Virus record (IMG/VR): IMGVR_UViG_3300005403_000166
Location: 1 to 54,817 of that record
Length of the DNA: 54,817 nucleotides
DNA from: a virus
Lineage: Duplodnaviria > Caudoviricetes
Strand: one strand, 5' to 3'
Below, one piece after another: positions 27,310-51,864 of the stretch. A model generated the notes under the pieces. That model had not been told where the DNA came from and searched no databases. It saw only the letters and a list, made by a program, of their open reading frames with translations. Each line of letters begins with the position of its first letter. Within the stretch, counting starts at the first letter, position 1. The position numbers and the translations under genes were made by a program.

Positions 27310-28176
27310 ATGCCTGCCAAATCATACGAGAGACAAGACCGTGAAACAAATAGAGCCTGGCAGGCTTTTCAGATCTATTTATCGTTAGGACCTTCCCGCA
27401 CACCAGGGAAAACTGCTAAGGAGCTAGGAGTATCCCGGCCAACCGTCAACCGGTGGCTATACAATTTCGACTGGAAATCGAGAGCAGAAGCCTATGATCA
27501 GGATCAATCCCCCGGATCCCTTTTTTTATCGCTCCCTGAAGCTTCACCAGTAAAGTGTGAAGCTACACCAATAGCACCTGAAGCTTCACCCGTAAGCCCT
27601 ACCCATAAGGGCCGGAGCTTGGAAGATAAGAGGGGAAGCTTGGTAGGTAACCCCTGGGACCGTCAACCCGGAGAGGGTGATGAGGCATGGGTAGCCTTTG
27701 TGATCTACCGGGACCTTGGTGCTGATCGAACACTGAAAAGAGTTCGGGAGGAGTTAGGCAAATCAGACACCATGGTCGAGCGGTGGTCCTCAACTCATCA
27801 GTGGGTTTACCGGTCAGCAGAATGGGATAAACACCTAGACCAGGAACTTCAGAAAGCGACCATCAAGGAGAAGACCGATTACGTCAAACTCCGGGAACAA
27901 AACCTCATCAAACAGGAACAACTCCGGGCCGAACTCCTGGAGGTTCACCTGAAGCGACTTAAGGACTTCAAGGCTAATCCAAAAGAGAACCCCTACCGGT
28001 TACCGTCAATCCTGACAATATCAGAATCAGGAAAAATCGATCAGGAGTCTAGGTCTGCAATATCAACAGACGATGGTGACAACTGGGCAGAGATAGGAGC
28101 CTTCCGGGCAATGATCCGGGATGAACTAAAGGAGAGGAATAATGAGGCTACTCCCCCCGAAGAAACTATCGAATAA
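27310..28176 (+). CDS. terS: Terminase small subunit with duplicated HTH domain
   Basis: Directly upstream of TerL; two RQxxExxxAWxAFxIYxxLGxxRT...W units. Confidence 0.7.
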   Translation: MPAKSYERQDRETNRAWQAFQIYLSLGPSRTPGKTAKELGVSRPTVNRWLYNFDWKSRAEAYDQDQSPGSLFLSLPEASPVKCEATPIAPEASPVSPTHKGRSLEDKRGSLVGNPWDRQPGEGDEAWVAFVIYRDLGADRTLKRVREELGKSDTMVERWSSTHQWVYRSAEWDKHLDQELQKATIKEKTDYVKLREQNLIKQEQLRAELLEVHLKRLKDFKANPKENPYRLPSILTISESGKIDQESRSAISTDDGDNWAEIGAFRAMIRDELKERNNEATPPEETIE

Positions 28177-30027: not shown

Positions 30028-31422
30028 ATGCCGGTATCGTTCCCGTCCCGGGCAGGGGTCAAATATGTTTCAAACCTTCCCCGGTTCGCAAAGAAACCAC
30101 TAACCACAGACGACCTGAGGAAATTCAGCAAAACCCTGTATGGGGAAGGCTTATTTCTAAAAATGTATGCTCTGGTCTTCAATAATCTTCCGGACCTCTA
30201 CGTATTCGACCCACAGGGTAACCCGGATGAGAATACTCAGTTAACCATACGGAACCTCTTCAAGTCAGAGAAATTCTCTGCAGACGCAGCCGGGAAAATG
30301 AGGCTGTTCGATAAGTTTTTTTATGGTCCTTCGATCTTCAATCCGCTCTGGATGAGATAGGGCACCGGGGTTATCCCCCAAGAATTGAGACATCTGGCTA
30401 CATACACCTTCAACCGGCTTCCAACCGGACGGGACCGATACTCTGATCTTCTCCCTGGACTCACCGTCAACCCGGACACGGAAGAGATCGAATGCTGGCA
30501 GACCCAGAAAAACAAAATGCCGGAACTGTTACCGGCTGAAGACATCGTTTTTGTTCAATCTGTTGTCCTGGACGGGGTTATTGAGTCTCCGATGATTGAG
30601 CCTATTGCTCCATTCATCGATATGCTCCTGTATGGGTGGGAGACCCAGATGCAGGCGTTAGGGATGGTGGCGATCCCTCCTCTTTTTATCAAGATCACTC
30701 AACCGGTTCCTGCCTGTGAGGCTAACGGATGGATGTCTGATGAAGAATATGGGAATGAGTTCCTTGCATCATGGGGTAACCAGACGAAGATGATACTCCG
30801 GCCAAACATGGAACTGGTCGAATACAAGTTCGAATCTACCCTAAACCTTGAAATTTTGGATGCTTTGTATTATACCATCGTTGATTACCTGAATCCGGCC
30901 TCGTTCATTAACCGGGAAGGAAACCTGATCGGCGGATCCACAACCGGACAACTTGAACTCATGGCGTCGTTCATCTCCGGTATCCAGACTGAAATATGTT
31001 CAGTTATCGATCAGTTGATTCAGCCTTATTTTGTCTATAACTCCTATCCAGAAGGTTACCGGGTTGTTTCTAAGTTAAAACCTCTGAATACCACCAACCG
31101 GGAAGCAGACCGGGCTGATGCCAAACTCATGATTGAGAACCGGTTCGGTGATCCGAACGTGGCTCTGCAGAAACTTGAGGGATGTGAAGGGGTTGATGAC
31201 AAGACCTGGAAGGAGTTTTCAGACCGGTGGTCTCTCATCCCGGTTGTTCAGAATACTTCTACCCAGGAAAAGGCAGTATCGGCCAACCTGGCTAAAGAGG
31301 ACCTGCCTGATGAGGTCGTTAAGATCAAGACCCCGGATGAGTTAGGGGATGGGATGGAGGCGAAGTTATCCCAGCTGATTGACCAGGCCGAGAAGGATAT
31401 CATCAAGGCGGTGAGGGGATAA
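30028..31422 (+). CDS. Portal protein, 464 aa, in-frame TAG at codon 111 (30358-30360)
   Basis: ORFs 30028-30360 and 30385-31422 are in the same frame with only the TAG between them; size and position after TerL fit a portal. Confidence 0.78.
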
Positions 31423-34225: not shown

Positions 34226-34254
34226 AAAAAACAAATAATATAAGCGCCTATATA
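34226..34254 (+). promoter_or_regulatory. Late promoter, 29 bp identical to 46210-46238
   Basis: AAAAAACAAATAATATAAGCGCCTATATA; ATG at 34263. Confidence 0.8.
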
Positions 34255-34262
34255 TGTCTCAT

Positions 34263-35459
34263 ATGGCTGAATAGGAAGAGGCTTACACTACTCTTGCTAA
34301 CTGCACTCTTCTGTTCTTGAACCGGTGGGTTGACTGTTCGACCGGCAGTTTTTATCATCCGGCTGATGTTTACGCTCAAAACGTCGATGCCTGGAACGGC
34401 ACCCGGATAGTTCTTAATCCAAACGATTTTGCATGGGAATTACACCCGGATGCAAAGTTATACGCTGCTGACCCGGAAACTGCTCTTCAGGATGTCGGAG
34501 CTATCGATATCGGATATATCGACAACGCTCAAATTATCTGGGAAGGTCACCCCCGGCTTGTTGCTGCGATGAACATCGATAACAACAATGCATACGGGAA
34601 GATGGCCCTGGATCTCTATTCTGCAGGCACTTTCGGGATTTCCATTGCTGATATCTTCAATGCATCAGAAGGCGTTGTGACCGGAGGCATCGAACCCAAT
34701 CATGTCCTCGTTTTTGAAGAAAATGGTTGGAACATGCCGGCAGACAAAGGAGCCGTAGCAGCAGCATCCAGCAGCCGGGTATCATGTTTCACTATCCCGG
34801 ATGGGCCAAAGAACCGGACTCATACCAGGAGAGCCCCGGTCAACCCGGCTCCTGTAGCAGCAAACTCAGCCAATGACGTAGAATCCATCGTTTCTAAAGT
34901 ATTTGAGAAGATCAAAGGATTTCTCTCAACCGGTTCTATCGAGGTTCAGAGTAGTGCATCGAACAGCGAACAACCATCAACGAAAATGGCAGAAACACCA
35001 GAAAACCCGGAGCCCAAACTCGCTGCTCTGAACCAGCAGATCGGAGCTCTGGAGAAAGATAAGACAGATCTCAACACGAAACTTGAGACCGTCACTGCAC
35101 AGCTCACTGACCTCAAGGCAACGTCTGAAAAGCAGGCTGAAGAACTTGAGGGACTGAAGAAAGAGAAGGCCGAAGCAGCCCTAAAGGCAGAGAACGAAAA
35201 GAAAGACGCTGAGTTTACGGCGTATCTTGAAGGCGAAGTCCCTGATGGTGAGAAAATCACTACGGAACAGGTAGCCGCTCTTCGGACTATGTTCTTCGAG
35301 AGACCACTAGAGGCTGTAAAGAAAGCCAGAGAATGGGCTGTTGCAGCTAACTCTATTCCGGGAAGGGCCGGATCCAAACAGGCAGCCGCACACGCCGGAG
35401 GAGAACACAAATCAGCAGATTGGGCAGGTCTGTTTCACAAAGGAGGTAACAGATCATGA
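34263..35459 (+). CDS. Prohead protease/scaffold, 398 aa, in-frame TAG at codon 4 (34272-34274)
   Basis: ATG GCT GAA TAG GAA continues in frame into ORF 34317; beta-rich N-terminal domain plus C-terminal coiled coil; precedes the capsid genes. Confidence 0.75.
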
Positions 35460-35965
35460 CGGCGGATATTGTCGTTGTTCAGGCAGGTAAGGTTCCATAT
35501 GTGGAGTTCGGCAATGTCGAGAACGCCACAAACATGATCTCCGGAAAGGTGGTCAAGAAAGGAACATCAGACACCGATATCGTAGTTGGGACGGCTGGAT
35601 GCAAGCCTTCCGGATTCCTGGGATACGAACAGGCACCTGTCCATTTCAAACCGCTGGATCGCGATACGGGATATGCGGTCAAAGCATCCGCCCCTGTCCT
35701 GAAGGGCGGGGATTACGAGATCGATGCCTGGCTTGCGGCAGGACAGACCATCACGAAGGATGACTTCCTCGTCCCAGATGATGATGGGAATCTGAAAATT
35801 GCGTCCGCTCTGGCAATTGCAACTGGAGCCACTCAGGTCACCTCTTCAGGAGCGAATGGAGCGGTGATTAATGGAAGTGTTGGAAAGGAGTTCATCATTG
35901 CACAGGCTTCTGTCTCAAAAACGACCACGACCGCAGCAGCACGTATCAAAGTGAGGGCTATCTAA
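35456..35965 (+). CDS. Capsid decoration/cement protein
   Basis: Small G/A/T-rich beta protein between scaffold and MCP; GGAGGT RBS. Confidence 0.65.
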   Translation: MTADIVVVQAGKVPYVEFGNVENATNMISGKVVKKGTSDTDIVVGTAGCKPSGFLGYEQAPVHFKPLDRDTGYAVKASAPVLKGGDYEIDAWLAAGQTITKDDFLVPDDDGNLKIASALAIATGATQVTSSGANGAVINGSVGKEFIIAQASVSKTTTTAAARIKVRAI

Positions 35966-36870
35966 TGGCAGATACAGGATTCACCTAGGGAGACTTACAG
36001 CGGGCGATCGAGTTCCTGGAACCAGAGCTCATTCGTCCGCTTGAAGGGGCATACATCGCCCGAAAGATCATGGCAGTCAATACCCAGGAAACCGGAGATG
36101 ACAAGTTCAGGGCCCGGGTAAGAAAGATCAGTAAGATGGGAGGCGGAACCGTCGCCTATAAGATCCGCAGTGACGGAGAACGCGATCAGGTTCAGATCAA
36201 GGCTCGTGAAGTGGACGTCCCGGTGCTCTATAAGGAGTTCGAGATCGACCGTCAGGACTTTGAGGCGTATGTCACGAAAGGAATCAACCTCACAACCGAA
36301 GCCACTCTTCTCGCCATGGAGGTTGTTGCATCTGATGAAGAGTCGATGCTCATCAAGGGATGCACCCCGAAGGGAACCACCGATCAGGTGGATGGTCTCT
36401 ATGATTCTGCTGAATCGACGATCGATACCACTCTTCATCTCAGTACTACCGGAACGGCTGTCAAAGCGGTCGCAAAAGGCATCCGTCAGATGCGGACTAA
36501 GAAAGTCAAGGAACTTTCCTTCCATTGGCTTTTGAACCCCGACGAGGTTGAAACCATCAGTTCAAACCAGATCTCCGGAACAACTGTCTATGAGATCGAT
36601 CAGGTCATCAAGGCTCTGAACTGTGGTAACGCGAATGGACCCGGTGGTGTTTGGGGATCAGAAGAAATCCCTGCAGGTGCAGGACTGATGGTTCCGTATG
36701 ACCCAAGCAGAAAGTATTACGAAATTCTCAATCCGGTCACTCCGTCAATTGAACTCGTCACTGATCCCTATCACCCGGACCTTGGAAACGTTCTGGGTAC
36801 TGTGTATGAGACTTCTCTTCCGCACATCAAGCGGCCTGAATGTCTCTACAAATTCACAGATCTGGCTTGA
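35965..36870 (+). CDS. Major capsid protein (HK97 fold, encapsulin-like), 301 aa, in-frame TAG at codon 8 (35986-35988)
   Basis: TAATG-coupled ATG; MADTGFT*GDLQRAIEF...IARKIM in frame with ORF 36070; VPVLYKEFEIDRQD and EESMLIKG resemble HK97-fold capsids. Confidence 0.82.
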
Positions 36871-38408: not shown

Positions 38409-38809
38409 GTTTTGTCGATGATCTTCGACCTATTCTTATCGCAGATCCAACTGTATTCAGTCTGATAGGTTTCACGGACAAGACTCTGAAGATCAATGAA
38501 ATCAAGTCATTCCGGGGCACTTTCCCTACGAAGACGAAACTACCCTGTATCACTTACACTGATATCTCTGGAGTCCCCGGAGAATTGGTGACGAATGATC
38601 TGTCTTTTCAAATCACAGCCTGGGGGTCTAATGATGTAGAATGCCAAACGGTAGCCGATGCAGTTGCCAAAGCGTTAGGATCTTGGTCAGGTTCTCTGAA
38701 TGGGAGGGTTGTAGAAAAGATTGAGAAAAAATTTTGGCAGGATTCTCTAATTGAGGCTGAAACAAACCTCTGGTATAGTATTCGAAAATTCGAAGTTTTG
38801 CATTGGTAA
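38405..38809 (+). CDS. Tail terminator (DUF3168-like)
   Basis: LPCITY...FQITAW...VADAVAKAL. Confidence 0.7.
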   Translation: MSFVDDLRPILIADPTVFSLIGFTDKTLKINEIKSFRGTFPTKTKLPCITYTDISGVPGELVTNDLSFQITAWGSNDVECQTVADAVAKALGSWSGSLNGRVVEKIEKKFWQDSLIEAETNLWYSIRKFEVLHW

Positions 38810-38817
38810 AAACACAC

Positions 38818-39747
38818 ATGGCGATTATTCACAACGAGAAATAGGGAACCGATATGGTATTCATCGGGAACTGTCTTGCATTCGCAGGGCGGTACTCTGG
38901 AATATCAGCAACCGATTTCTCATCTTCAAACCTGTTCAACCTCGGCCCGAAGAAATCTGTCGGGTATGAGCCGGGGATGGAAACTGTCGAGCCTGAACTT
39001 GATGACTGTGAGTTTGATCCGGTTATCAAGAAAGAATCAGCGACCCTCTCTATGGAACTCGGTGAGTTCTATGTCGAGAAGCTGGCACTGATCTCTGGAG
39101 GAACCTCAAAGGCTACCTACACTCTAGGAACTCCGGTAACGAGTGCAACTGAGAACATCACTCTCAACGGGACTCGTCCGGTCCGTCTCTCAAACAAGAG
39201 TTACTCTACTTCTGCAGCTGTTCTGGCATCTACTGTTGTCGTCACCAGCATCGAAGAAACTCCAAAAACCTATGTGAAAGACACTGACTACACCATCACT
39301 CAGGATGTTCTTGGTTTCACGCAGATCACACGTATTGGTGCTGGAACCATCACTGACAAATCAACTGTCAAGGTGACGTACGGGTATACTCCTGCGATCA
39401 TGCGGACTCTCTCCCGTGGTGGTTCAAGTGAGGTTACTCCGATCGTTCTTCGTGTCATCCACGTCAAGAGGATCGAAGGGACCAAGATCTACGGGTTTAT
39501 GATTGACATCTTCAAAGCCTACTACACCAAGCTCTCAAAGATGTCTTTTGGTTCAGATTCAGAGATGAAGGACGTTCTGACTCTGCCGTACGAGTTCACC
39601 GGGAAGTATGACAAGAACCGGAGTCTTGGTTTCCAGGTGGATGCAATCAACACACTTCACGGTGTAACACTCGAGGATCTGAACATGAACAACATGGCAG
39701 ACCTTGACCTCGCCGTACTCAAGGATGCAGCTGTGATTTCAACATGA
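38818..39747 (+). CDS. Major tail tube protein, 309 aa, in-frame TAG at codon 9 (38842-38844)
   Basis: ATG 8 nt after the previous stop; MAIIHNEK*GTDMVFIG in frame with ORF 38854; tube-like beta pattern with Ig-like insert (YVKDTDYTI). Confidence 0.75.
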
Positions 39748-40504: not shown

Positions 40505-40717
40505 TTACAATTCAACCCGGTTCAACCCTTTTCTTATATCTGCTATTCTCTCTTCGGTTTCTTTCTGTCCTTCCTCGTCTTTCTCGATAGACACTAGGAC
40601 AACATCCTTCTCCTTCAATCTTGGAAAAAGGGAAACAGGAACCTGAAAGACCGGGCCTGACTCAGGGACCAGAATAATCCAATCTCCTTCTATCCGGTCA
40701 ACTGTTGCCCGGGTCAT
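40505..40717 (-). CDS. DUF3006-like protein
   Basis: ATVDRIEGDW...LKEKDVV; coupled to the ComEC-like gene. Confidence 0.75.
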   Translation of the reverse strand: MTRATVDRIEGDWIILVPESGPVFQVPVSLFPRLKEKDVVLVSIEKDEEGQKETEERIADIRKGLNRVEL

Positions 40718-41742
40718 GACTCACAAGCCAGCCCGTCTTTGTCACGATCAAGTTGGTGAACGTCTCCTTTGCCCTGTGCCTTACAGAAATCATAGCACTT
40801 TTGTCCGGTTACACCGTTAGCAAGGGGGAAATCCTTACAGTTGTATGAGTTCTTGGAACAGTCACAAATGGGGGTTGATGATGAAACTGCCACGGTGGGA
40901 AGGGGTGCTGCTACTGTCTGAATAGAAGTGGGTTTTGATGTTGATGTCTCACTTCCCTTATCAGATGTCACGGTATAGGATGACCCTATGGAGGTGACCA
41001 CAATATTTCCATTCTTATCAGTCCGGTATACCTGTGCTCCGGCTATATCCAGATTCTTTAACGTATTTGTTGTTGGATGGCCGTATGTGTTCCCGGCACC
41101 GACCTCAATAATTGCGACTTTAGGATTAACCTGATCTAGAAATGCCTGAGAACTCCCGGAGTTTGATCCATGATGTGTGACCTTGAGTATCTGCGCTGAG
41201 GGGTCACCATTGTAGGTCGAAGAATCGCCCATAAAGAGGAACTTTTCTGATCCATCTGTAACCTTGAGAACAACTGAATCTTCATTCAAGTCATTTTTAT
41301 CAGATGTAGGATTGAGCACATCGACTGTGATCCCCTCAACAAATGGGATCACCTTTCCGGTCTTGACCTCTGCATAAGGAACTTGTTTCTGTTTTAGTGT
41401 GCTCATGACATTTTCATAGGTCTTGGTGTTGGTTGTTTCCCCATTATCAACGTAGAGTCCAACAGGGAAAGCGTTCAACACATCGACCATCCCGCCAATA
41501 TGATCCTCATGGGGATGCGTGGCAACGACAACGTCTAATTTATCCACACCATGACTTTTCAGGTAATTTACGACTGTGGGTCCGGCGTCAGTTGGACCGG
41601 CATCTATCAGCATACTGTGACCCCCGGACTGGAGGAGTTCAGCGTCCCCCTGGCCGACATCGAGGTATGAGACAGTCATTTCTCCGGCTGCTAGTCCGGG
41701 GATGATCAAGAGGATGAGTAATAGAATACCAGTACGAAGCAT
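40714..41742 (-). CDS. Secreted ComEC/Rec2-type metallo-beta-lactamase nuclease with C-terminal Excalibur Ca-binding domain
   Basis: LDVGQGD, THPHEDHIGG, FMGD, HHGS, YGHP, YRTD; DRDKDGLACE. Confidence 0.88.
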   Translation of the reverse strand: MLRTGILLLILLIIPGLAAGEMTVSYLDVGQGDAELLQSGGHSMLIDAGPTDAGPTVVNYLKSHGVDKLDVVVATHPHEDHIGGMVDVLNAFPVGLYVDNGETTNTKTYENVMSTLKQKQVPYAEVKTGKVIPFVEGITVDVLNPTSDKNDLNEDSVVLKVTDGSEKFLFMGDSSTYNGDPSAQILKVTHHGSNSGSSQAFLDQVNPKVAIIEVGAGNTYGHPTTNTLKNLDIAGAQVYRTDKNGNIVVTSIGSSYTVTSDKGSETSTSKPTSIQTVAAPLPTVAVSSSTPICDCSKNSYNCKDFPLANGVTGQKCYDFCKAQGKGDVHQLDRDKDGLACES

Positions 41743-42422: not shown

Positions 42423-42839
42423 TTATTCATCCTTTGAATCTTTGGGTCTTTCGGGTAGTTTAACGGAGGCATTGGTATATAATTCGACCTTATCCCATTC
42501 CTCAACCAATTCTCGCAACTCGTTTCTTTTTAAAATGAGTAATTTATCCTTGTATAAACGCTGACAAACTTTTACGTATGATTCTACTTTCTCATAATAG
42601 GGGGATTCAAGAATTATGAGATCAAAAGAACCCATATCTAAAGCAACAACCCACCAATCTGATTTGTCTACAGGATCTACGATAGATACCAATTCTTCGC
42701 ACAAGAATTTGTTGAAAATATTAACAATATATTCCTTAAATGAAACATTATCTCTTTTAGCCCTATCTTGTAACGCATTATATAGAGCGGCCGGGATTCT
42801 CACCCCCAATTGTTTTTCAGGTTCTTTCATGTGTAACAA
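42423..42839 (-). CDS. RHH regulator fused to copy 3 of the four-copy domain
   Basis: QLGVRIPAALYNALQDRAKRDNVSFKEYI plus WWVVALDMGSFD...NELREL. Confidence 0.7.
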   Translation of the reverse strand: MLHMKEPEKQLGVRIPAALYNALQDRAKRDNVSFKEYIVNIFNKFLCEELVSIVDPVDKSDWWVVALDMGSFDLIILESPYYEKVESYVKVCQRLYKDKLLILKRNELRELVEEWDKVELYTNASVKLPERPKDSKDE

Positions 42840-42865
42840 TTAGGAGGCGAAAATAATAGAGTTAG

Positions 42866-42919
42866 TGCTATCACATTTGGTTAGCAAAATTATATATATT
42901 TTGTAACATAATGCTATCA
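42866..42919. promoter_or_regulatory. Divergent promoter with TGCTATCA operator-like repeats
   Basis: TGCTATCA at 42866 and 42912, inverted TGGTTAGCA at 42878, TTATATATA at 42890. Confidence 0.5.
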
Positions 42920-42940
42920 TGCACAGTTGAAGTGTAATCT

Positions 42941-43126
42941 GTGCTGGTAAAAATGCAAACATTGGTGAAGACGAAGAAAAGTGAAACAGTCGGGGTTCGG
43001 TTCACAATGCATGAAATCGGTGACATTCAGAAGATGATAGACTCCGGGGAATATGCAAATCCCACTGAAGTAATCAGAGATGCATTCAGAGCATTCAGGA
43101 GAGAACGAGGCTTGATAAAGGTATGA
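42941..43126 (+). CDS. RHH (CopG/Arc-like) regulator
   Basis: TVGVRFT...IDSGEYANPTEVIRDAFR. Confidence 0.75.
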   Translation: MLVKMQTLVKTKKSETVGVRFTMHEIGDIQKMIDSGEYANPTEVIRDAFRAFRRERGLIKV

Positions 43127-43959
43127 GCAAAAGAAGTGAAAAGGCCAGCCCATCCGCACCTGGCAGTAACGACGGGCTGAACAATGCAATTACTATTTCT
43201 AACGTGAAGAGTGATGAAGGTTTCCAACTCATTACTTTGTTCGGGTTCGAAATCCGGGCTGAGATAGTAGATGGAGAACCGTGGTTTGTGGTTCAAGATC
43301 TTTCAAAGATGTTTGGAATTCATGAAAAGACTATTCCAACCAGAATCAAGAACAATCCTGATGACTTTGAGGGATGGATCCGCCTAGGAGATGTAACATA
43401 TCCTAGGGGAAATTCACCCGGATTAGAAAATCTGAACCAATCTATCCTTCTTGCAAATGAACAGGCTGTTTATTTGATTATGGGGGGATTGACTACCAAG
43501 AGGATCAAGAATCCAGAAGCCCGGGAGATGGTAAAGAAGTTTAAGCGGGCGTTCCCGGAACTCCTGAAGATGATCCGGACCGGTGAAGTCAAGATTGTCA
43601 AGACTGAGGAATGGGATTACAAGAGATGGCTCGCAACACAGGGAGCCAAATTCCTTGGAGACTCCATTCACTCTTCAATTGAGAAACTCGCCCGGAACCT
43701 AAAGCATGAGCCTTTTGTCCATATGAATAATCACAAGATGATCAATATCATCATCTTTGGTAGGCATGAGAAAGGTATCCGGGATTCTGCAACCAAAGAG
43801 CAATTGGAAGCCATCCATACTCTTGAGATCATAGATGGGACTCTAATTAAGTCCGGGATGATAGAGCATAAAGATCGGAAGGCTAGGCTCGAAGCAGAGT
43901 ATCAATCCATTCAGATCAGAAACAAGGGGCCATCAACGCAGCAGGCGGTTCTTGCATGA
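43123..43959 (+). CDS. Bro-N domain antirepressor-like protein
   Basis: FEIRAEIVDGEPWFVVQDL...NEQAVY...PEAREMVKKF. Confidence 0.75.
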   Translation: MSKRSEKASPSAPGSNDGLNNAITISNVKSDEGFQLITLFGFEIRAEIVDGEPWFVVQDLSKMFGIHEKTIPTRIKNNPDDFEGWIRLGDVTYPRGNSPGLENLNQSILLANEQAVYLIMGGLTTKRIKNPEAREMVKKFKRAFPELLKMIRTGEVKIVKTEEWDYKRWLATQGAKFLGDSIHSSIEKLARNLKHEPFVHMNNHKMINIIIFGRHEKGIRDSATKEQLEAIHTLEIIDGTLIKSGMIEHKDRKARLEAEYQSIQIRNKGPSTQQAVLA

Positions 43960-44207
43960 CCCCAGAAGATGATTCCTGGTGTGTTGCCGTCGATATGGGA
44001 TCCTTCGATCTTATCGTGGTTGAGAGTAATCATTACCATACCTGTCAATCATATCAGCAGGTCAACCAACACCTGTACCGAGAAGAGTTACAGATCAAAC
44101 TTCGGTCACAACTCCGGGAACTACTCGAAAACTGGACTTCCATGGAGATCTGTGTATCTTCAAGAGTCCGGGAGCCGGGAAAAGCAAACCAACAGGAGGG
44201 GATTTGA
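43956..44207 (+). CDS. Stand-alone copy 4 of the four-copy domain
   Basis: SWCVAVDMGSFDLIVVES...SQLRELLENW. Confidence 0.65.
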   Translation: MTPEDDSWCVAVDMGSFDLIVVESNHYHTCQSYQQVNQHLYREELQIKLRSQLRELLENWTSMEICVSSRVREPGKANQQEGI

Positions 44208-44698
44208 TGGATTCGATTCAGATTGTAGGGGTAACCCCCTCAACCATCAAACTCCCGGTATGGAAAAACCTGGTTGAAGTAGGGAAAATATGGGGGTATG
44301 GATCCCTCCATCCCCATGATGAAATCTCAACGATCCTCTCTCTGAATTATGGTACTACTGAATATTACTCAAATGTAGGTAGGGCAAATACAGAGTTACT
44401 TCTTATTGGTAAACTCCTCAAAAGTGTTCATGGTTCTGGATATGAAGTCGTTAATCCAGATGATTACCCGGCTGTAGTCCTTGACTTAACGAAAAAAGTC
44501 TGTCGGAGGATGAAGAAGATTGTTCGGGTAACCGAATATGCCCCAGAAAACGATATGAGTCCTGAAGCCCGGTATAAACTACGAGAGATGAGAGATCGAG
44601 CCATCCGGTCACTCGCTATGACAAATACAGATAAGAAAGATTTTACTCGCTTATTAAAATCGCCCGGCAAAATACATCTAAACCAATCGAGGGTCTAA
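44204..44698 (+). CDS. Hypothetical protein co-transcribed with the RAMP-like gene
   Basis: Coupled; wHTH-like LKSVHGSGYEVV then a basic helical C-terminus. Confidence 0.65.
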   Translation: MMDSIQIVGVTPSTIKLPVWKNLVEVGKIWGYGSLHPHDEISTILSLNYGTTEYYSNVGRANTELLLIGKLLKSVHGSGYEVVNPDDYPAVVLDLTKKVCRRMKKIVRVTEYAPENDMSPEARYKLREMRDRAIRSLAMTNTDKKDFTRLLKSPGKIHLNQSRV

Positions 44699-44700
44699 AA

Positions 44701-45276
44701 ATGATGCAAACCATCAATGTAACTCTGAATAGTGTACATACTATGTTGATGAACTCGAATTTGGGAGTTAATCCGACAATACCTCTCGTAAAAGAGTTAA
44801 AAGAGATTACAGGGAAGAGAAAGAAGACTGATGAAGACAATCTCAAGATATTAGAGATTAAATGGAAATTAGCCCTTTACTATGATGAAAATATAGGGGT
44901 CTACATTCCTGCAGCAAATATTGAAGCATCTATCAGAGAAGCAGCCAAACGCTCTCGAAGAGGAAAAGATGTAGTTACAGGCATACATGTTCCTGATGAT
45001 TATATCCCTCTGAAATATGATGGGCCTAAAACCATAGATGAACTTTGGAATGATGGGCGTTTCCGAGACATAAGAGTGGGAAGGATTCAAAAAGCAAGTG
45101 TGATGATTTGTAGACCCCGATTTGCTCATTGGAGTGTGAACTTTGATATGGTGTTCGATGACGAAATTTTTTCAGAGGATGAAATCAAAGAGTTACTGAT
45201 AACTGCGGGTAAATACACTGGGCTTTGTGATTATCGCCCAAGGTATGGAACTTTTGAACCCGTGATTCATACGTAA
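44701..45276 (+). CDS. Solo Cas7/RAMP-like protein
   Basis: First strand INVTLNSVHTMLMN, YIPAANIEASIREAA (RAMP xIPxxxxKGxxR-like), RPRF..W, C-terminal Gly loop AGKYTGLCDYRPRYGTF. Confidence 0.7.
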   Translation: MMQTINVTLNSVHTMLMNSNLGVNPTIPLVKELKEITGKRKKTDEDNLKILEIKWKLALYYDENIGVYIPAANIEASIREAAKRSRRGKDVVTGIHVPDDYIPLKYDGPKTIDELWNDGRFRDIRVGRIQKASVMICRPRFAHWSVNFDMVFDDEIFSEDEIKELLITAGKYTGLCDYRPRYGTFEPVIHT

Positions 45277-45281
45277 AACTC

Positions 45282-45470
45282 GGATTTCGTGGTAATGCAG
45301 AGTTCGGTTTGGTTCTGCGGGGCATGGTGAGGTACTGCAAGGATTTCGTGGTAAGGCGGAGTGTTGCAATGCGAGGCAGGGTGCGGCAAGGTAAGGCTTG
45401 GATTTCGTGGTGCTGTACGGTGCGGTATGGTTTGGTATGGTAGGGTGTAGCGGTGTAAGGTTCGGATTTT
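45282..45470 (+). repeat. Array of three units: GGATTTCGT anchor plus 10/10/11 pentamers DGY-NN; candidate guide RNAs
   Basis: Anchors at 45282, 45341, 45400 and a partial one at 45464; all 31 pentamers fit (G/T/A)G(T/C)NN. Confidence 0.88.
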
Positions 45471-45488
45471 ACGGGATCTAATAACAAC

Positions 45489-45499
45489 CTTTTTCTTTA
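45489..45499 (+). terminator. Oligo-T archaeal terminator candidate after the array
   Basis: CTTTTTCTTT tract. Confidence 0.4.
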
Positions 45500-45521
45500 T
45501 TCAAATAAGAGGTGAATTGAT

Positions 45522-46184
45522 ATGAAATACCTCAAATTATCAATCATCCTCATTTTTATTATACTATTATCAGGGTGTACAACAACCCCCCAGAAACAAG
45601 AACCTACAATCATTCCTGCCCCTCAAGAAACTGAAACTACGATTATCACTCCTAATATTACTGTTGCCCCAAACATGACTACAGCATCAACATTGGTCAC
45701 AAAAAAGGTCACGGGGATGGGTACAATATTAAAATCGGAGATGCTCAAATTAGTACCTCTATTCACAGCATACAATGATGATCTGATCGCAAATGATTAT
45801 AAGAAACTAGGGACTGATAATCTTGCATTAAGGAAAGAAGTTGAATCACAATCAGATTATTTTGGAGATACTTTAAGCAGTTCAGAGATAGAAGGAGCGA
45901 AGGACTTCACTGCATCAGATAAGATCCTGTATCAGAAGTACTCTGGATATCTGAAGACCTTTAAGAACATGGTCGTATCTACTGAATTAGCCCTGACATT
46001 CATCAACGATGATAACAGTGAACTGAATGCAGCCGACAAATTGAACCTGATAGGCACTGCATTAGATGACCGGAATAAACTCTATGATCAGGTTGACACC
46101 ATCTTCGATTCCTGCAAGGAATACGAGGTTGATTGTGGTCAGAATGATGCATCTGTGAAGTTACTCAAAAAGAAATTATTCTAA
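45522..46184 (+). CDS. Lipoprotein-like accessory protein
   Basis: MKYLK-hydrophobic-LSGC lipobox, T/P linker; GAGGTGA RBS. Confidence 0.7.
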   Translation: MKYLKLSIILIFIILLSGCTTTPQKQEPTIIPAPQETETTIITPNITVAPNMTTASTLVTKKVTGMGTILKSEMLKLVPLFTAYNDDLIANDYKKLGTDNLALRKEVESQSDYFGDTLSSSEIEGAKDFTASDKILYQKYSGYLKTFKNMVVSTELALTFINDDNSELNAADKLNLIGTALDDRNKLYDQVDTIFDSCKEYEVDCGQNDASVKLLKKKLF

Positions 46185-46245: not shown

Positions 46246-49200
46246 ATGGCTGATGAGCGGCTGTCAATTCTACTGAGCGTTCAAATCGGATAGGGCCTTG
46301 CCGACCTGGCAAAAATAAGGGGCTCCTTAACCGGGATAGACTCAGCAGCGGGCACCACTCAACAAAACCTAAAGTCTATTGTTTCTGCATTATCCGGATT
46401 CGGATCAAATATCAGCGGCGAAACAGGGAAAGCTGAATCTTCATTAAAATCATTTTCCGACGTCATCATCTCAACAAATAAAGAGATCGGTCAGTTAGGT
46501 TCTACCATCAATTTTGGCGACAAAATCTCTACTGAATCAAAAACTGCTCTTGCATCTCTTGAAAAACTGGAAAAGCAATTCCAGCAATTGGAAAAATACA
46601 GCAGCCTCCAAAAATCCTTCAACACTGCTGCATCTATCACCGGATCAGCATCAACCGGGGCTCTGGTAGCAGGGGCGGGACTAACTGCAGCTGCATTCCC
46701 GGTAGAGTCCTACATCAACAATGCGATCTCCGCCTATTCTGATTACGAATCCCAGGTCCAGTATGTCTCTTCTCTCCTGGGTAATCAAGTCGGATTATAC
46801 GAACAGATCGACGCATTATCAAAAAGCCTAGGTCAATCTACTCCGTTTTCACCATCCCAAGTTGCCTCTGCATTACAGCCATTGGCACAGGCCGGATATA
46901 CTCTCGATCAGATTAAATCGGCCTCTCCGACCTTGGTTAACATGAGTGTGGCCACCCGGGAACCCATCAATGAGATGGCTTCGACTCTCACCCAAACCCT
47001 GTCACAGTTCCAGATGTTACCGGATCAGGCGGAGACAGTAGGGAACAAGATCGCCACCGCTGCAAACATCAGCAATACTGACGTCCGGGACATTTCAGAA
47101 TCTCTCAAATATGCCGGAACCACTGCAGAAGCATTCAACAAACCGTTAAATGATACCCTTGCTATCCTTTCGACTCTCGGGGATTATGGTGTCAAAGGAT
47201 CACAGGCCGGAACCGGAATCAATGAGTTTTTAGCCCGGTTAGAAACACCCCCGAAGGCTGCCAAAAAAGCCCTGGCTGATTATGGGATCTCCATTGAAGA
47301 GATTAAGCCCTCGATGCATTCTTTTGAGGAGATCCTTGAAAGGCTATCCTCGTCAGGAATGGACATCGGTTCGTTCATCAAACTCCTCGGACTTGATGCA
47401 GGACCGAAGTTTGCAGCCCTGTTCTCAACTGAAGGTCTTGACAAGTATCGTGAGAAACTGAAGGCACTGCAGGCTGACAACTCCGGGGCTCTTCAGAAAC
47501 TCACCGATGAACAGATGGGGACTCTTGCTAACATCAAGGAGACCATCAACGGAGCACTGGAAAACATCTCTCTAAAAGTCGGAGAGAAATTTAAGCCCCT
47601 TTTCAAGGATATCGGCACTTGGTTCTCAAACAGCGAGAACACCGATATGATCTCTCAATTCATGGAGAATCTCGCAGATGGGATTATTCCAGTGATTGAA
47701 AAGATAATTAGTGCAATCACCCGGTTGATGACCTGGTTCAACAATCTCCCGGAGGGTATCCAGAGTAAACTTGCCGGAATGACCGGGGTCGGTGCTGCTC
47801 TCGCAGGGATTGCCGGACCTCTCCTGATGCTGTCTGCCGGTCCAATATACACTCTCTCATCATTGTTCTCAATCCTGGAGAAGATAGCCGGGCTTAAACT
47901 CGATAAGAAGGCCTCTGAAATCTCCAATATTGTTGATTCATTAACGAATGTAGCCACCATCACCTCAACGACCGGAGGATCCAAACAGGCCACACTTCCG
48001 GATACAATCCTCGGAGTTACTGATGATGCTGCTTATATGGCTGCCGGGATTGGTGACGCAGGGAACTCATTGATCCTTGCCGCTGACAAGTATGATGATG
48101 ATGTCAAGAAGGCAGAACAGAAGATAACAAAAACAGCAAAAGCATCCGCAAAGTCAGGCGCCCTTAAGGATATTGCTCCTTCACTTTTCACTGCCGGGAG
48201 CCTCTATGGTGCAGATGCTCTTATCGATTATGAAAAATCTAAAAAGGATGAAGACTGGTCTGATTGGGCAGAGAATTTTAATCAGCCCTATTCTGATTTA
48301 GTCCCGTCCAGATATCAAGGTGCTTCTAATCTGGATTCATCAATCACCAAAATTGAGGAGTCAGAAAAGAAATTACAAGCATTATCGGCCGGGATATACG
48401 GTACATCCATCCTTTCAGAACTTGACACTCCGGACTACCTTAAGTCAAATGTAGTTACTCAATACGATGATGCAATCTCAAAATTTGAGGCATCTGAACA
48501 GCGATTAAAGAGCATAGTAAAAGATGCTGACATCGAGGCCCCGAAGTTCTCCAGTATTGGAGATGTTTCGAACCTTGCCTTAACAGCCACCAGCATTGAC
48601 CGGATCGGTGACTCATCCAAGAAGACCGGAAAATCCATCAAGTCTGAACTCATCGAAAACATGGATGAGTGGACTGCAAGGGATGTCTCGGCATTATTTG
48701 CAGAAGAAGCAGACGGGATTGAGAACATCGGGAAGAAGACTGAGGGTTTATCATCCAAGTTATCAGGGGTAAAATCCAGCATTGCATCTGTCCCGACAGC
48801 CCTGAACGGGATGCTGGTTGCTTCCACTGCAGAGTTATCCTCGCTTGAGGGAACGTTCGCTGCAGTAGGCGGGCCTATCGGTATTGCTTTTGCGGCCGCG
48901 ATCGCTGCCAGTGCAGCAGCATATCTAACAAACTATGGCGGTTTTGCAGACAACATCAATAATGTCATATCCGAAGCAGGTTCGGCAGTATCCAACATTT
49001 CCACGGGCAACTATAAGGAAGCCGGGAACCAGGCCGCTCACGCATTTGCTGATGGATTAGGAGCAGTTAGCGATTTAGCTGTTACTGTCATCAAGAACAT
49101 CCCACAAACCGGCGTTGATGTAACCAAATTCCTTGGCGGGTTTAATGAAGGGATGCAACAGGCAGCTGAAGGTGCTGTATCTGCATTAGTCGCCGAGTTT

Positions 49201-51864
49201 CTGGGTGATCTCAACTCTGCCGGAATAAGTGCCAACACATTTTGCGGAAATGTCTCCGACGCAATTAAGGGATTTTCATGGGCAGACGTAGGAACCGCCG
49301 TTAACTCTCTCATTACTTCTGGATTGAATACTGCGGTTGATGTTTCCGGGTTCATATCATCGATAAAATCAGAACTTTTATCCGGGGATTGGGAATCAAT
49401 AGGATCGGGTATCAAGGACTTACTCACAAATGGAGTTTTATCACATGGATGGGCTGGTTCATTTATCCGGGCTGGAGAGAATGGAGTCCAGGAGTATATA
49501 GATGATACCAAAGAACAATACAAATCTCTTGCAACAAAGAATAGCCCCCTATTAGCATCAAATTCGAACAACAGGGATACATCTTCCTGGTCATGGGTTT
49601 CAGGTCCATCAGCATCAGAGATAAAAGCAGCAGTTCAGTCCGGAGCCCAATCCGGAACATCAGCGGGAGTTCAGGAAGCAGCCAAATCAACAACAGCAGC
49701 AGCCGGGAAGTATTCCGGTGCTGATATTGACGCTATTGCTAAAGCAAAAGATTGGGATGTATCTACGGTCCAAGCCCTCGCAGCAAAGGGATCCAACTTT
49801 GATGCTGTCCTGGCATCTGCAAAGAAATCTGTAGATGAGAATTCCGAAGCAACCGATGATGATACTGCAGCCACAAAGGAACTATCGAACTCGAAAAAGA
49901 CTGCTGCCAAGAAGTATTCTTCCCTATCAGAAGCTGAGGCTGCTGCAGCCAAGGCCGGGAAGAAATCCCTAACCTATGATGATCAGTCCTATTCTGCAAT
50001 ATGGAACGATGACACTGGATCTTATGAATGGGTCCTGAATGACCTACAGTCACAAGCCGAGAGGCAGAAGGCTAAAATTGCCGATAAAGCCTCTTCTACC
50101 TTAAACAAGGTAAATGATACAGTTACCTCCAAATATGCTGATTACCTAGACTCATATAATGATGCAGTAACCAAGGCTACTACGGTAAGAGACCAGCAGA
50201 TCAGTTACCTCAATCCTACGAGTAAAAATTATCAGACCCAACTCAACCGGATTACCGATTCCTACAATAATAAAGTCTCATCTGCTATCGATAGTTTCCA
50301 GGATAGCGTCAACAAACTGAATGGAAAATATGGCACTTCTCTTTCAACTGATGTTAACTCTGCCAGTAAATCTCTTGCCGATTATTCGAGTTCAACTAAG
50401 TCCTCAGCATCAGCAACCGAGTCTGCAACAAAGGCACAAAAGACTCAAGTTGGTATAGTAGATACATCATCTTCAGCGATAGATACCCAGACCGCAGCCA
50501 TAAAATCTTCAACAGATGCAGTTACCGGGTTTACGGATAAGTTAGGATCTACAGATATCTCCTCAGCAATCAGTAAGTTATTTTCTCCAGAAGAAGGGCC
50601 AGGAGCGGTCGCTAGAGACAAAGGAGATTCACAGATATACGGAATGGCCACCGGTTATGATGCATCATTCTACCAAAAAGCAATTGATTCAGCAGTTAAA
50701 AGCGCTGTCGATGCAAGTATCAAAGCATCAATAAACTCTGGATATTCCAACGGGCAGATGTCCTACGATATGGAGCAGATGATATACACCATCCTCCGTA
50801 ACTATCCAGGAGCATCGTGGCAGAGTAATTCAGAGGTTCGGGGCCTAACTAATAGTTATCTCTCGTACTACTCGTCTGATGAGTATATCGACTCAATCCG
50901 GAATGGAACAACCAATACACAATCATACGCAGACGCCGTCGATAAGTCCGGATCATCAACCGAGACCGCATCAAAAGGCATCCTTACATTCTCCGATGCA
51001 GTAGACGCTGCCGGGAACAAAGCCACAAATGCCGCCTCTAAAATAACAACCGGATCCAGTATCTCACCGTCCGGGTCTGAATATACTGCCCGATCATGGG
51101 TAGGTAAGTACTCGCCAGATACCTCTGTACCAGTATCAAAACTCTCCAACTCTGCATATAACAACCAGAATGTAGCCGGATCAGCTAAGGCTGTTGATCT
51201 GAACTCTGACAATATTCACTGCGTATTCAGCGATTCAACGGTCAAACTCCCGGACACTGCAGTCAGTAAGATAGGCACGGACCTCAGCTCTGCCAACAAG
51301 TCCTGCATAGAACAGGTCAACCAATCCAGGGGCTTGAATTCTCTGACCAGCGTCGATACCGGGCAGATTATAGAGAAAACGTCTCAACTTTCTGATTATT
51401 CTTCTGCCCTGCAGAACACCGGATCAATCCTCAGCTCAACAATCCCGACCGTTAGTCAGAACCTTGATTCAGTCGGTCAGTCCCTTGAAAATCTGGCATC
51501 AGCAGCCGGTGTTGCTGTGTCACAGATTAACGATGCCATCTCCAGGGCCAACTCAATCCTCTCCTCTGCTATAAGTTCAGTAAACAACCTCCAGTCAGGA
51601 GAATTCTCCGGGCCACAAACCACAACCCAGAAGTTCGCCACCGGGGGTCCTGTGACCGAGACCGGGAAGGCCGATGTCGAGGCAGGTGAGTGGATCCTTC
51701 GCCGGGACCAGGTCAGAAACCTCCAGACTGGTGGAGGAAACACAATTCAACTGATTACAAACATGCAAGGCAGTAAATTCGGAGATCCAGAATTGTCAAA
51801 AGACTTACCCCAAAAGATTGCACGACAGAACATTTTGCGCCTTAAAAGGGCAGGATTTGCTTAA
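46246..51864 (+). CDS. Tail tape measure protein, 1872 aa, in-frame TAG at codon 16 (46291-46293)
   Basis: MADERLSILLSVQIG*GLADL... open to ORF 46588; TP901-type core (STPFSPSQVA, SLKYAG, GVKGSQAGT); FATGG near the C-terminus. Confidence 0.9.

What the first reader, a model, noticed from the sequence alone, without database searches (positions are those of the whole stretch)
44204..45499. Solo Cas7/RAMP-like gene followed by a GGY-NN pentamer array: candidate non-CRISPR RNA-guided system
Seen: 5 nt after the stop of a 191-aa RAMP-like gene come three units, GGATTTCGT+(DGY-NN)x10, x10 and x11, closed by a partial anchor and a T-tract. The variable dinucleotides read unit 1 AA AG TC TT TC GG AT GA AC AA; unit 2 AA GG GT AA GA AG GC AA AA TT; unit 3 GC AC GC AT TT AT AG GT GG AA TC. 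No cas1/2/3/5/6 and no CRISPR array is present. Established: Cas7 RAMPs polymerise along guide RNA with fixed periodicity. Inference: one subunit binds per pentamer, with DGY as the protein-bound part and NN as a gapped targeting code. From memory this matches the recently reported VIPR-type phage systems, which I cannot verify here. An archaeal-provirus example with a coupled 164-aa partner gene would be notable, plausibly acting against competing viruses.
Basis: partly seen in the sequence, partly recalled or inferred. Interest (0 to 1): 0.9.

Follow-up and report, generated by a model that had tools for sequence, protein, structure and literature searches.

The report
VIPR guide-RNA system in archaeal-type virus
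The gene and the pentamer array are a genuine VIPR system, a phage-borne RNA-guided DNA-silencing device first described in 2026 preprints, here in a compact form in a tailed virus whose replication genes look archaeal; it is a new example of a known kind, not a new kind.

Summary
Five nt after the stop of the 191-aa gene lie three tracts of 10, 10 and 11 DGYNN pentamers. Each is preceded by GGATTTCGT, and the array ends in a degenerate anchor and a T-tract.

The protein alone hits the solved SUSP1 Vipr protein (PDB 36pp) over its full length at E 1.6e-26, and its family profile does so at 1.2e-57. Its model (pLDDT 95) matches only Csm3/Cmr4/Cas7 RAMPs. The SUSP1 residues shown by mutagenesis to be needed (K33, R138, D177) are conserved.

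In 100 of 143 related loci a same-strand pentamer array lies within 2 kb of the gene; this occurs in 0 of 143 shuffled loci. The upstream 163-aa gene is a conserved winged-helix-like accessory gene (vap).

What differs from SUSP1 is the array. It has 59-nt units joined by a 9-nt GGA-initiated spacer instead of a 40-60-nt structured tail. The virus also carries archaeal-type MCM, Hef-like and XerA-like genes.

No target and no transcript evidence were obtained. Verdict: new member of a known kind, moderate interest.

The parts
43123..43959 (+). Bro-N / anti-repressor-like gene; first large gene of the overlapping gene string that ends in vipr
   Evidence: Pfam Bro-N E 0.0014, below cut-off. PHROG 2657 transcriptional regulator E 3.8e-15 and anti-repressor PHROGs. 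Its stop overlaps the start of the next ORF.
43956..44207 (+). 83-aa ORF of unknown function; its stop overlaps the vap start (TGATG)
   Evidence: ORF list and sequence. No family in Pfam or PHROGs.
44207..44698 (+). vap: VIPR accessory gene, 163 aa from the ATG (164 aa from the TTG at 44204); winged-helix-like N-terminal half followed by two long helices
   Evidence: At least 40 same-strand ORFs in related loci match it, E 1.3e-35 to 3.7e-9. Alignment A3. Model pLDDT 90.8. The best fold matches are wHTH regulators but weak, E 0.018 or worse. hhalign to the gene beside vipr in Felixounavirus VpaE1 gives 95.3%, E 2.1e-8.
44701..45276 (+). vipr: 191-aa RAMP protein of the Vipr family
   Evidence: PDB 36pp_D 'SUSP1 Vipr protein' E 1.6e-26 alone and 1.2e-57 as a profile. 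pLDDT 95.1. 108 Foldseek hits at E<=1e-3, top ranks all Csm3/Cmr4/type VII Cas7. phrog_4652 E 2.4e-50.
45282..45290 (+). anchor/spacer 1, GGATTTCGT
45291..45340 (+). guide tract 1: 10 DGYNN pentamers; NN = AA AG TC TT TC GG AT GA AC AA
45341..45349 (+). anchor/spacer 2, GGATTTCGT
45350..45399 (+). guide tract 2: 10 pentamers; NN = AA GG GT AA GA AG GC AA AA TT
45400..45408 (+). anchor/spacer 3, GGATTTCGT
45409..45463 (+). guide tract 3: 11 pentamers; NN = GC AC GC AT TT AT AG GT GG AA TC
45464..45479 (+). terminal degenerate anchor GGATTTTACGGGATCT; the ACGGGATCT part also stands just before the array of the closest viral relative, L006
   Evidence: In a variant contig of run X6, position 45470 T>C gives the clade-typical GGATTTCAC.
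45488..45500 (+). T-rich tract, candidate transcription stop (inferred)
   Evidence: Sequence only. The bacterial-type terminator scan found no hairpin terminator here.

Best explanation
The locus is a VIPR (Viral Interference Programmable Repeat) system. It consists of vap (44207-44698), vipr (44701-45276) and a three-guide vrRNA array (45282-45479). It sits at the end of a string of overlapping genes that begins with regulator-like genes, inside the tail-gene region of a tailed virus or provirus.

Shown here: Vipr family membership, the RAMP fold, conservation of the RNA- and DNA-contacting residues, the array and its statistics, the linkage of vap, vipr and arrays across relatives, and the absence of cas genes and of a CRISPR array.

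Inferred by homology to SUSP1:
- The array is transcribed on the + strand with or after vipr and ends at the T-tract.
- Vipr protomers polymerise on it one per pentamer. They hold D/G1, G2 and Y3 and expose N4 and N5.
- The 10-11 NN pairs read double-stranded DNA with one skipped base per pair. The predicted targets, written on the guide-sense strand, are AAnAGnTCnTTnTCnGGnATnGAnACnAA, AAnGGnGTnAAnGAnAGnGCnAAnAAnTT and GCnACnGCnATnTTnATnAGnGTnGGnAAnTC.
- Binding silences transcription of a competing mobile element, helped by the DNA-binding Vap.

My own inference: the 9-nt spacers begin with an invariant GGA, whose purine at position 3 should not fit the pyrimidine-only Y3 pocket. They also shift the pentamer phase by one base. 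They would therefore punctuate the filament or mark processing sites, doing the job of the long pseudoknot tail of SUSP1 vrRNAs.
For: Family membership: phmmer of the protein against PDB sequences gives 36pp_D 'SUSP1 Vipr protein' at E 1.6e-26 over residues 2-187; the next hit is at 0.0075. The 36-sequence profile gives 1.2e-57 over 1-189.

Fold: AF2 pLDDT 95.1, pTM 0.88. Foldseek gives 108 PDB chains at E<=1e-3, and the listed top ranks are all Csm3/Cmr4/type VII Cas7.

Residues: SUSP1 K33, R138 and D177 (alanine mutants lose silencing), plus W178 and R179, align with K34, R138, D177, Y178 and R179 here. Across 145 aligned sequences these are K 129, R 143, D 138, aromatic 141 and R 141.

Array: 31 of 31 pentamers are DGYNN.

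Linkage: 100 of 143 non-identical related loci have a same-strand run of 7 or more pentamers within 2 kb of vipr, against 0 of 143 shuffled loci. In the near clade, 31 of 34 loci have runs, and the other 3 contigs end at the vipr gene.

Spacers in the near clade: among 33 nine-nt spacers, GGA and T5 are invariant, with consensus GGATTTCAY; L082 and L093 carry the identical GGATTTCGT.

Guide turnover: near-identical loci (L080/L081/L098; L087-L090) share some tracts and differ in others. A variant contig in run X6 differs in tract 3 at N4/N5 four times, at Y3 once (T>C), at position 1 twice and never at G2.

vap: conserved and adjacent, and homologous to the gene beside vipr in a Felixounavirus.

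Self-targeting: none at or above the preprint's 80% threshold; the best are 15 of 20 and 16 of 22 (threshold).

Viral setting.
Against: No evidence of transcription, processing or Vipr binding was obtained for this locus.

No target was found anywhere (see Tried and rejected), so the function is carried over from SUSP1, which shares about 34% identity.

The SUSP1-type invariant structured 3' tail is absent. The array as RNA folds no better than shuffles (z 0.02), so maturation and filament capping must differ or may not occur.

Position 1 is G in only 21 of 31 pentamers. The SUSP1 G1 contact H17 is N18 here, so recognition of the first base may differ.

43 of 143 related loci showed no same-strand run of 7 or more; some are truncated contigs, and 8 have only opposite-strand runs.

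The locus counts include redundant copies of the same contig drawn from two collections (for example L006/L068 and L001/L119).
Confidence: 0.85

Rival explanations
1. It is the same VIPR components, but the array is one long multi-guide RNA that is not cut. Three Vipr filaments would form on one ~190-nt transcript, with the 9-nt spacers acting only as phase breaks or hinges. Alternatively, it is the 'staggered/overlapping' vrRNA architecture that the first preprint mentions.
For: The spacers are too short (9 nt) for a hairpin or pseudoknot, and the array shows no excess structure. No ribozyme or other Rfam family lies in the window apart from one tRNA. [quoted passage not shown] S18), and it does not count them among the architectures confirmed by sRNA-seq.
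Against: Tract lengths of 10, 10 and 11 here, and mostly 8-13 in the near clade, fall in the 9-16 range of single mature vrRNAs. This suggests the units act separately. There are no data either way on cleavage.
Confidence: 0.3
2. The system is real but does not serve warfare between viruses. The guides would regulate host genes, or the virus's own lysis-lysogeny decision in trans, because the locus is co-oriented with an anti-repressor-like gene and lies beside an Arc-like repressor.
For: The gene string is Bro-N/anti-repressor-like, then the 83-aa ORF, vap and vipr, with an Arc-like repressor gene diverging upstream. No viral target was found.
Against: No self match reaches 80% NN in the whole 54.8-kb record. 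In the characterised clades the natural targets are satellites and rival prophages. The host genome could not be searched.
Confidence: 0.1
3. The locus is a decaying or silent relic. The relaxed first base (10 of 31 pentamers not G) and the H-to-N change at the G1 contact would then reflect loss of function.
For: The G1 fraction is 0.68 here, against 0.885 in the near clade and 0.94 in loci with H at the contact position.
Against: Both genes are intact, and all mutagenesis-tested residues are conserved. G2 and Y3 are perfect in 31 of 31 pentamers. 22 loci with N at that position keep arrays, with a G1 fraction of 0.85. Another preprint reports working-looking arrays with a degenerate first base, such as WGT/NN.
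Confidence: 0.05

Closest known systems
SUSP1 / Felixounavirus VIPR system (called type II in bioRxiv 10.64898/2026.04.26.720920; structures in 10.64898/2026.04.26.720927; PDB 36pp)
   Same: The Vipr protein is homologous over its full length, with conserved K33/R138/D177/aromatic 178/R179 equivalents. A homologous vap gene lies beside vipr. GGYNN pentamer tracts of 10-13 units lie on the same strand as vipr. The setting is viral, with no cas genes and no CRISPR array.
   Different: Identity is about 34%. vap lies upstream of vipr here and downstream in VpaE1. In VpaE1 each tract is followed by a 40-60-nt tail and the tracts are about 115 nt apart; the SUSP1 tail forms a pseudoknot that caps the filament. 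Here the units are 59 nt apart with only a 9-nt spacer. The first repeat base is relaxed (G/T/A), and the G1-contacting H17 is N. The host appears to be archaeal rather than enterobacterial.
'Staggered' compact vrRNA arrays mentioned for other VIPR types (fig. S18 legend of 10.64898/2026.04.26.720920)
   Same: The tracts are closely packed, so the end of one vrRNA abuts the start of the next.
   Different: I could read only the legend. Figures and supplements are not held, so I cannot tell whether the 9-nt GGATTTCRY-punctuated form, or this clade, is what is drawn there, or which of the seven types it belongs to.
Class 1 CRISPR backbone RAMPs (Csm3/Cmr4/Cas7)
   Same: The fold is the same: an RRM core with G-loop and thumb. 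Foldseek E values run from 1.5e-6 to 1e-4 against many Csm3/Cmr4 chains. The logic of periodic protein-imposed breaks in guide-target pairing is shared.
   Different: There is no CRISPR array, no other cas genes and no adaptation module. The period is 5 nt with 3 bases sequestered, against 6 nt with 1 flipped. The target is dsDNA read with a gapped code. Sequence identity is 9-16%.

Membership tests
VIPR system | Vipr protein: a homologue of the characterised Vipr RAMP | tested here: met
   36pp_D SUSP1 Vipr: E 1.6e-26 for the single sequence and 1.2e-57 for the profile, full length.
VIPR system | Minimal RAMP fold with G-loop and thumb, and conserved RNA-contact residues | tested here: met
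   pLDDT 95.1. 108 Foldseek hits at E<=1e-3, with the listed top ranks all Csm3/Cmr4/Cas7. R138, D177, Y178, R179 and K34 are conserved. The G1 contact H17 is replaced by N18.
VIPR system | vrRNA locus: tandem YNNGG/GGYNN repeats (at least 4; 9-16 per vrRNA) beside vipr, with GGY conserved and NN variable | tested here: met
   Three tracts of 10, 10 and 11 pentamers; G2 31 of 31, Y3 31 of 31, G1 21 of 31; NN entropy 1.49 and 1.99 bits. Relatives: 100 of 143 loci, against 0 of 143 shuffled.
VIPR system | Accessory vap gene in the same small operon | tested here: met
   The 163-aa gene abuts vipr. At least 40 homologues lie beside vipr in related loci. hhalign to the vipr neighbour in VpaE1 gives 95.3%, E 2.1e-8. 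The fold is wHTH-like but the match is weak, E 0.018 or worse.
VIPR system | No CRISPR array or other cas genes; mostly a viral or proviral setting | tested here: met
   The only short-range direct repeats are the array itself. Integrase, MCM, terminases, capsid and tape-measure genes are present. The tool itself calls the record a virus record.
VIPR system | vrRNAs are expressed and co-purify with Vipr | not testable with these tools
   This needs sRNA-seq and a pull-down. The public-run look-up gave nothing usable (see Tried and rejected).
VIPR system | Guides match natural DNA targets by the 1-nt-skip rule at 80% NN or more, with no self-target | tested here: inconclusive
   No self hit reaches 80%. 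No convincing external target was found.
SUSP1-type (type II) vrRNA architecture | An invariant structured 3' tail (about 40-60 nt, hairpin/pseudoknot) after each repeat tract | tested here: not met
   Only 9-nt spacers lie between tracts. The array as RNA has z 0.02 against shuffles. Compare the tails in VpaE1. Assignment to one of the seven types was not possible because the figures and supplements are not held.
CRISPR-Cas class 1 effector | A CRISPR repeat-spacer array plus Cas5/Cas6/large subunit and adaptation genes | tested here: not met
   No CRISPR array. No Cas families in the Pfam, NCBIfam or PHROGs scans.

The most novel reading that the evidence does not exclude
This clade would represent a distinct, tail-less VIPR architecture carried by viruses of archaea. 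The invariant GGA-initiated 9-nt spacer (GGATTTCRY) would be a minimal punctuation signal. A purine at the pyrimidine-only position, plus a one-base phase slip, would stop Vipr polymerisation and define the guide ends without any pseudoknot or ribozyme. The relaxed first base would go with the H-to-N change in the G1 pocket. If so, it would be the simplest known way to parse a multi-guide RNA, and the first concrete VIPR example to work with in an archaeal virus. That virus also appears to recode TAG using its own suppressor tRNA.
Probability: 0.3. Interest if true: 0.5.

Novelty: new member of a known kind. Interest (0 to 1): 0.35.

Why it matters
VIPR is a months-old discovery, argued to predate CRISPR. 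Nearly all the experimental work is on one enterobacterial phage clade.

This locus gives a fully annotated, intact example from a virus with archaeal-type replication genes. It adds three things:
- It extends the set of concrete loci that can be tested.
- It shows that the residues required in SUSP1 are conserved at about 34% identity.
- It documents a compact array form, with a 9-nt GGA-initiated spacer conserved across a metagenomic clade. This form raises a specific, testable question about how guide boundaries are set without a structured tail.

It does not change the picture of what VIPR is.

Tried and rejected
Targets.
- Exact 1-nt-skip patterns of the three full guides in IMG/VR gave 0, 0 and 0 hits.
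- I dropped the last pentamer, which is semi-constant in the clade. That gave 0, 0 and 1 hit.
- The single hit is L148 5743-5768 on the minus strand, matching 18 of 20 NN bases with the tenth pair mismatched. It lies at the start of a small ORF in an 11.4-kb AT-rich contig. By my rough estimate, about one chance hit is expected for 18 specified bases in a collection of this size, so I treat it as chance.
- I searched 227 unique guides from all fetched loci against all loci plus the window, at skips 0-3 and a threshold of 85% or more. Skip 1 gave 38 hits outside arrays, against 49 for shuffled guides and 25-29 for the other skips. There is no signal, and none of the window's own guides scored.
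- The host or related genomes could not be searched.

Expression.
- The look-up of sequencing runs listed no RNA holder.
- Two runs with an RNA-Seq library label hold short contigs over part of the array: X2, 235 nt and identical over 45352-45586; and X6, a variant. The tool marks both as probably DNA, and they are contigs. I draw nothing on transcription from them.
- X1 holds the whole stretch in a 65-kb contig and may be the source sample, so it is not independent.

Searches that found no family.
- Pfam found nothing for vipr or vap. NCBIfam found nothing for vipr.
- Single-protein search for related loci found nothing in viral or genome contigs.
- The profile scan of species-representative genomes found only 5 loci, all bacterial.
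- The word-indexed search for vap found only itself.
- The sigma-70 promoter and hairpin-terminator scan was uninformative, with 3 promoter-like sites against 6.2 expected.
- Tandem Repeats Finder missed the array.

Not done or not available.
- I did not use complex prediction, because I make no binding claim beyond homology.
- Supplementary tables and figures of the preprints are not held. Table S3, data S4 and figs. S16-S18 could show that this contig or clade, and its type, are already catalogued.

Host. TerL's best matches are bacterial phages, up to 49% identity to Bacillus phage Flasso. This sits against the archaeal signals, so I call the host 'probably archaeal', not proven.
Full report
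**Observation.** The 191-aa ORF (44701-45276, + strand) ends in TAA. After AACTC come three copies of GGATTTCGT at 45282, 45341 and 45400. Each is followed by a tract of pentamers: 45291-45340, 45350-45399 and 45409-45463, with 10, 10 and 11 units. After the last tract come GGATTTTACGGGATCT and a T-rich stretch. All 31 pentamers fit DGYNN. Position 2 is always G and position 3 is always C or T. Position 1 is G 21, T 7 and A 3 times. Positions 4 and 5 are variable. Shuffled windows give 0.65 runs of 5 or more pentamers. The only short-range direct repeats in the whole window are this array.

**What is known.** A full-text search found four 2026 preprints on VIPR systems.
- 10.64898/2026.04.26.720920: I read the Results and four Methods sections and passages found by term search.
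- 10.64898/2026.04.26.720927: I read the outline and two Results sections.
- 10.64898/2026.10.15.759431 and 10.64898/2026.10.21.760802: I saw only passages found by term search.

According to these papers, a VIPR has the following parts:
- a minimal RAMP protein, Vipr;
- usually one accessory gene, vap;
- vrRNAs of 9-16 GGYNN repeats, followed in the SUSP1 clade by an invariant structured tail.

One Vipr protomer binds per repeat and sequesters GGY. The NN pairs read dsDNA with one skipped base per pair, which silences transcription. Natural targets are satellites and rival prophages. Seven types with varied array architectures exist. The systems are said to occur mainly in bacteriophages and archaeal viruses.

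**The protein.**
- Pfam and NCBIfam have no model for it. PHROGs has one of unknown function (phrog_4652, E 2.4e-50).
- Against PDB sequences, the protein alone hits chain 36pp_D, 'SUSP1 Vipr protein', at E 1.6e-26 over residues 2-187. A profile of 36 homologues hits it at 1.2e-57 over the full length.
- The AlphaFold model is confident (pLDDT 95.1). Foldseek returns 108 PDB chains at E<=1e-3, and the listed top ranks are all Csm3, Cmr4 or type VII Cas7.
- I read the HMMER alignment against the structural paper. SUSP1 K33, R138 and D177, whose alanine mutants lose silencing, and W178 and R179 correspond to K34, R138, D177, Y178 and R179 here. In 145 aligned sequences these columns are K 129, R 143, D 138, aromatic 141 and R 141.
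- The G1-contacting H17 is N18 here. N occurs in 26 of the 145 sequences.
- Loci with N show a G1 fraction of 0.853 (22 loci). Loci with H show 0.938 (70 loci). These loci are related to each other, so this is an observation, not a test.
- The family is large: 83 clusters in the word-indexed search, all unnamed, and 2,441 representatives at E<=1e-3.
- It occurs in 130 phage records. The organism names shown are Escherichia, Salmonella, Shigella, Felixounavirus, Enterobacteria, Mycobacterium, Gordonia, Pseudomonas, Citrobacter and Listonella; three further first words were not shown.

**Arrays go with the gene.** I fetched 146 related loci. A vipr ORF was found in 144 of them, and one locus was an exact duplicate.
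- Of the remaining 143, 100 have a same-strand run of 7 or more DGYNN pentamers within 2 kb of vipr. The runs lie downstream only in 65, upstream only in 23, and on both sides in 9.
- 8 loci have only opposite-strand runs. None of 143 shuffled loci has any run.
- The 143 include the same contig fetched from two collections in several cases. Some of the 43 without a run are contigs that end at the gene.
- In the 34 nearest loci (41-62% identity), 31 have arrays, and the other three contigs stop at the vipr gene's end.

**Array architecture in this clade.** The tracts are mostly 8-13 pentamers long. They are joined by very short spacers: 33 of 9 nt, 15 of 8 nt (TTTTTCAY) and 12 of 4 nt (CTAT-like).
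- In the 9-nt class, GGA at positions 1-3 and T at position 5 are invariant (33 of 33), with consensus GGATTTCAY. Two loci (L082, L093) use the same GGATTTCGT as the window.
- The last pentamer before a spacer is biased: GGCAC 22, GGCAA 21 and GGTTT 19 of 116 tracts.
- By contrast, in Felixounavirus VpaE1, a relative of SUSP1, each ~13-repeat tract is followed by a 40-60-nt tail, and the units are about 115 nt apart.
- The window's array as RNA has no more structure than shuffles (z 0.02). Rfam finds no ribozyme.

So the compact, tail-less form is typical of this clade and differs from the characterised type. The first preprint mentions 'staggered' arrays whose vrRNAs abut. I could not see the figure to tell whether this is the same thing.

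**Guide variability.**
- Near-identical loci share vipr-proximal tracts and differ in distal ones (L080/L081/L098; L087-L090).
- A variant contig in run X6 differs from tract 3 at seven places: four at N4/N5, one T>C at Y3, two at position 1 and none at G2. Its terminal anchor reads like the clade consensus.

**The partner gene.** The 163-aa product has no Pfam family, and the word-indexed search found only itself.
- phmmer against ORFs of the fetched loci finds at least 40 same-strand homologues beside vipr, upstream or downstream (E 1.3e-35 to 3.7e-9).
- The 28-sequence alignment has an invariant G-Y in a GxGYxV motif.
- The model (pLDDT 90.8) is a helix/strand N-terminal half followed by two long helices.
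- Foldseek gives no hit below E 1e-3. Most of the best-ranked chains are winged-helix transcription regulators (MarR, GntR and OmpR types), from E 0.018. The profile shows a faint match to OmpR-type DNA-binding domains (E 0.043).
- hhalign links the family to the gene next to vipr in VpaE1 (95.3%, E 2.1e-8, 109 columns).

It is therefore a vap of the DNA-binding kind. The fold assignment is weak, but the homology to the Felixounavirus neighbour is fair.

**Setting.** The window is the whole record held, and the tool treats it as a virus record. It encodes:
- a tyrosine integrase, a Hef-like helicase, MCM and a C5 methylase;
- small and large terminases, a Mu-F-like protein, a scaffold protein, an HK97/linocin-like capsid protein and a 1,758-aa tape measure.

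The VIPR genes close a string of overlapping genes (43123-45276). That string follows a divergent regulatory region with an Arc-like repressor, and it lies between tail genes and the tape-measure gene.

Archaeal signals:
- Hef nuclease model, E 2.5e-181, 604.6 bits, over the helicase half.
- The best integrase model is archaeal XerA.
- MCM scores 544.7 bits.
- MCM tblastn: by first word of the organism name, 19 of 20 records are archaeal viruses.
- The Atlas neighbours of MCM are archaeal or viral clusters (leads only).

Signals against: the large terminase is up to 49% identical to bacterial phage terminases, and the representative-genome scan found the family only in five bacterial genomes. 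I conclude the host is probably archaeal, unproven.

**Mechanism and its limits.** Membership is shown. Everything dynamic is inferred: transcription, one protomer per pentamer, the 1-nt-skip reading, silencing of a competitor and help from Vap. The punctuation role of the GGA spacer is my own inference. It rests on the report that the Y3 pocket excludes purines and on the invariance of GGA.
- No self-target reaches 80%, as the preprint found for its systems.
- I found no external target, no cross-targeting signal and no usable transcript evidence (see Tried and rejected).

**Verdict.** The finding is a new member of a recently described kind. It has a compact array architecture and a probable archaeal host, which make it a useful but not surprising example.

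Noticed in passing
window 26232-26303; also 30028-31422, 35965-36870, 46246-51864, 28142-29446, 34254-35459, 38803-39747: The virus encodes a tRNA with a CUA anticodon just upstream of the terminase genes. ARAGORN labels it tRNA-Pyl, and Rfam scores it as an ordinary tRNA at 53.3 bits. Reading TAG as sense joins or extends six late-gene ORFs through one in-frame TAG each. Two ORFs of 110 and 345 aa become one portal-sized 464-aa ORF. The capsid gene gains an ATG start that abuts the previous gene, and the tape-measure gene gains an ATG start 62 nt after it. TAG ends only 2 of 42 called genes. This suggests suppressor-tRNA-dependent TAG recoding of late genes. The Pfam domains lie downstream of the TAGs, so they do not prove it.
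   Followed up: partly
window 42423-43126 and 43956-44207: An Arc-like repressor gene on the minus strand (PHROG 582, E 2.3e-6) diverges from a small + strand ORF (42941-43126) that looks ribbon-helix-helix-like by eye. An A/T-rich TTATATATA motif lies between them at about 42890. By eye, the C-terminal half of the 138-aa repressor resembles the 83-aa ORF just upstream of vap (shared ...DMGSFDLI..ES... stretch). This looks like a possible switch module driving the VIPR operon.
   Followed up: no
window 45291-45463 and clade arrays (L006, L067-L099): C is avoided at the first variable base (N4): 0 of 31 pentamers in the window and 124 of 1,177 in the near clade. N5 is even. This bias in the 'programmable' positions is unexplained.
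   Followed up: no
L080, L081, L098; L087-L090: Loci with the same vipr and identical proximal tracts differ by whole tracts at the distal end of the array. Some tracts look like internal duplications or recombinants of neighbouring ones. This suggests unit-wise array turnover.
   Followed up: no
L007-L009, L101-L104 and others (8 loci): In a mainly marine sub-clade (about 42% identity), runs of 7 or more pentamers are found only on the strand opposite to vipr. Either the array is inverted there or a different repeat consensus is used on the vipr strand.
   Followed up: no
window 4051-5580 (-), 16761-18833 (+): The virus carries a helicase that scores 604.6 bits against the archaeal Hef nuclease model (cut-off 610) but covers only the helicase half. 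It also carries a full MCM with OB, P-loop and lid domains.
   Followed up: partly
window 40714-41742 (-): A secreted-looking metallo-beta-lactamase-fold protein with a C-terminal Excalibur calcium-binding domain is encoded on the opposite strand inside the tail-gene region.
   Followed up: no
window 15486-16190: A 234-aa protein has an HNH endonuclease domain (PHROGs, E 2.7e-12) and a weak, far sub-threshold match to the IscB model (E 5.2e-5, 22.5 bits against a cut-off of 175). It is most likely an ordinary HNH nuclease.
   Followed up: no
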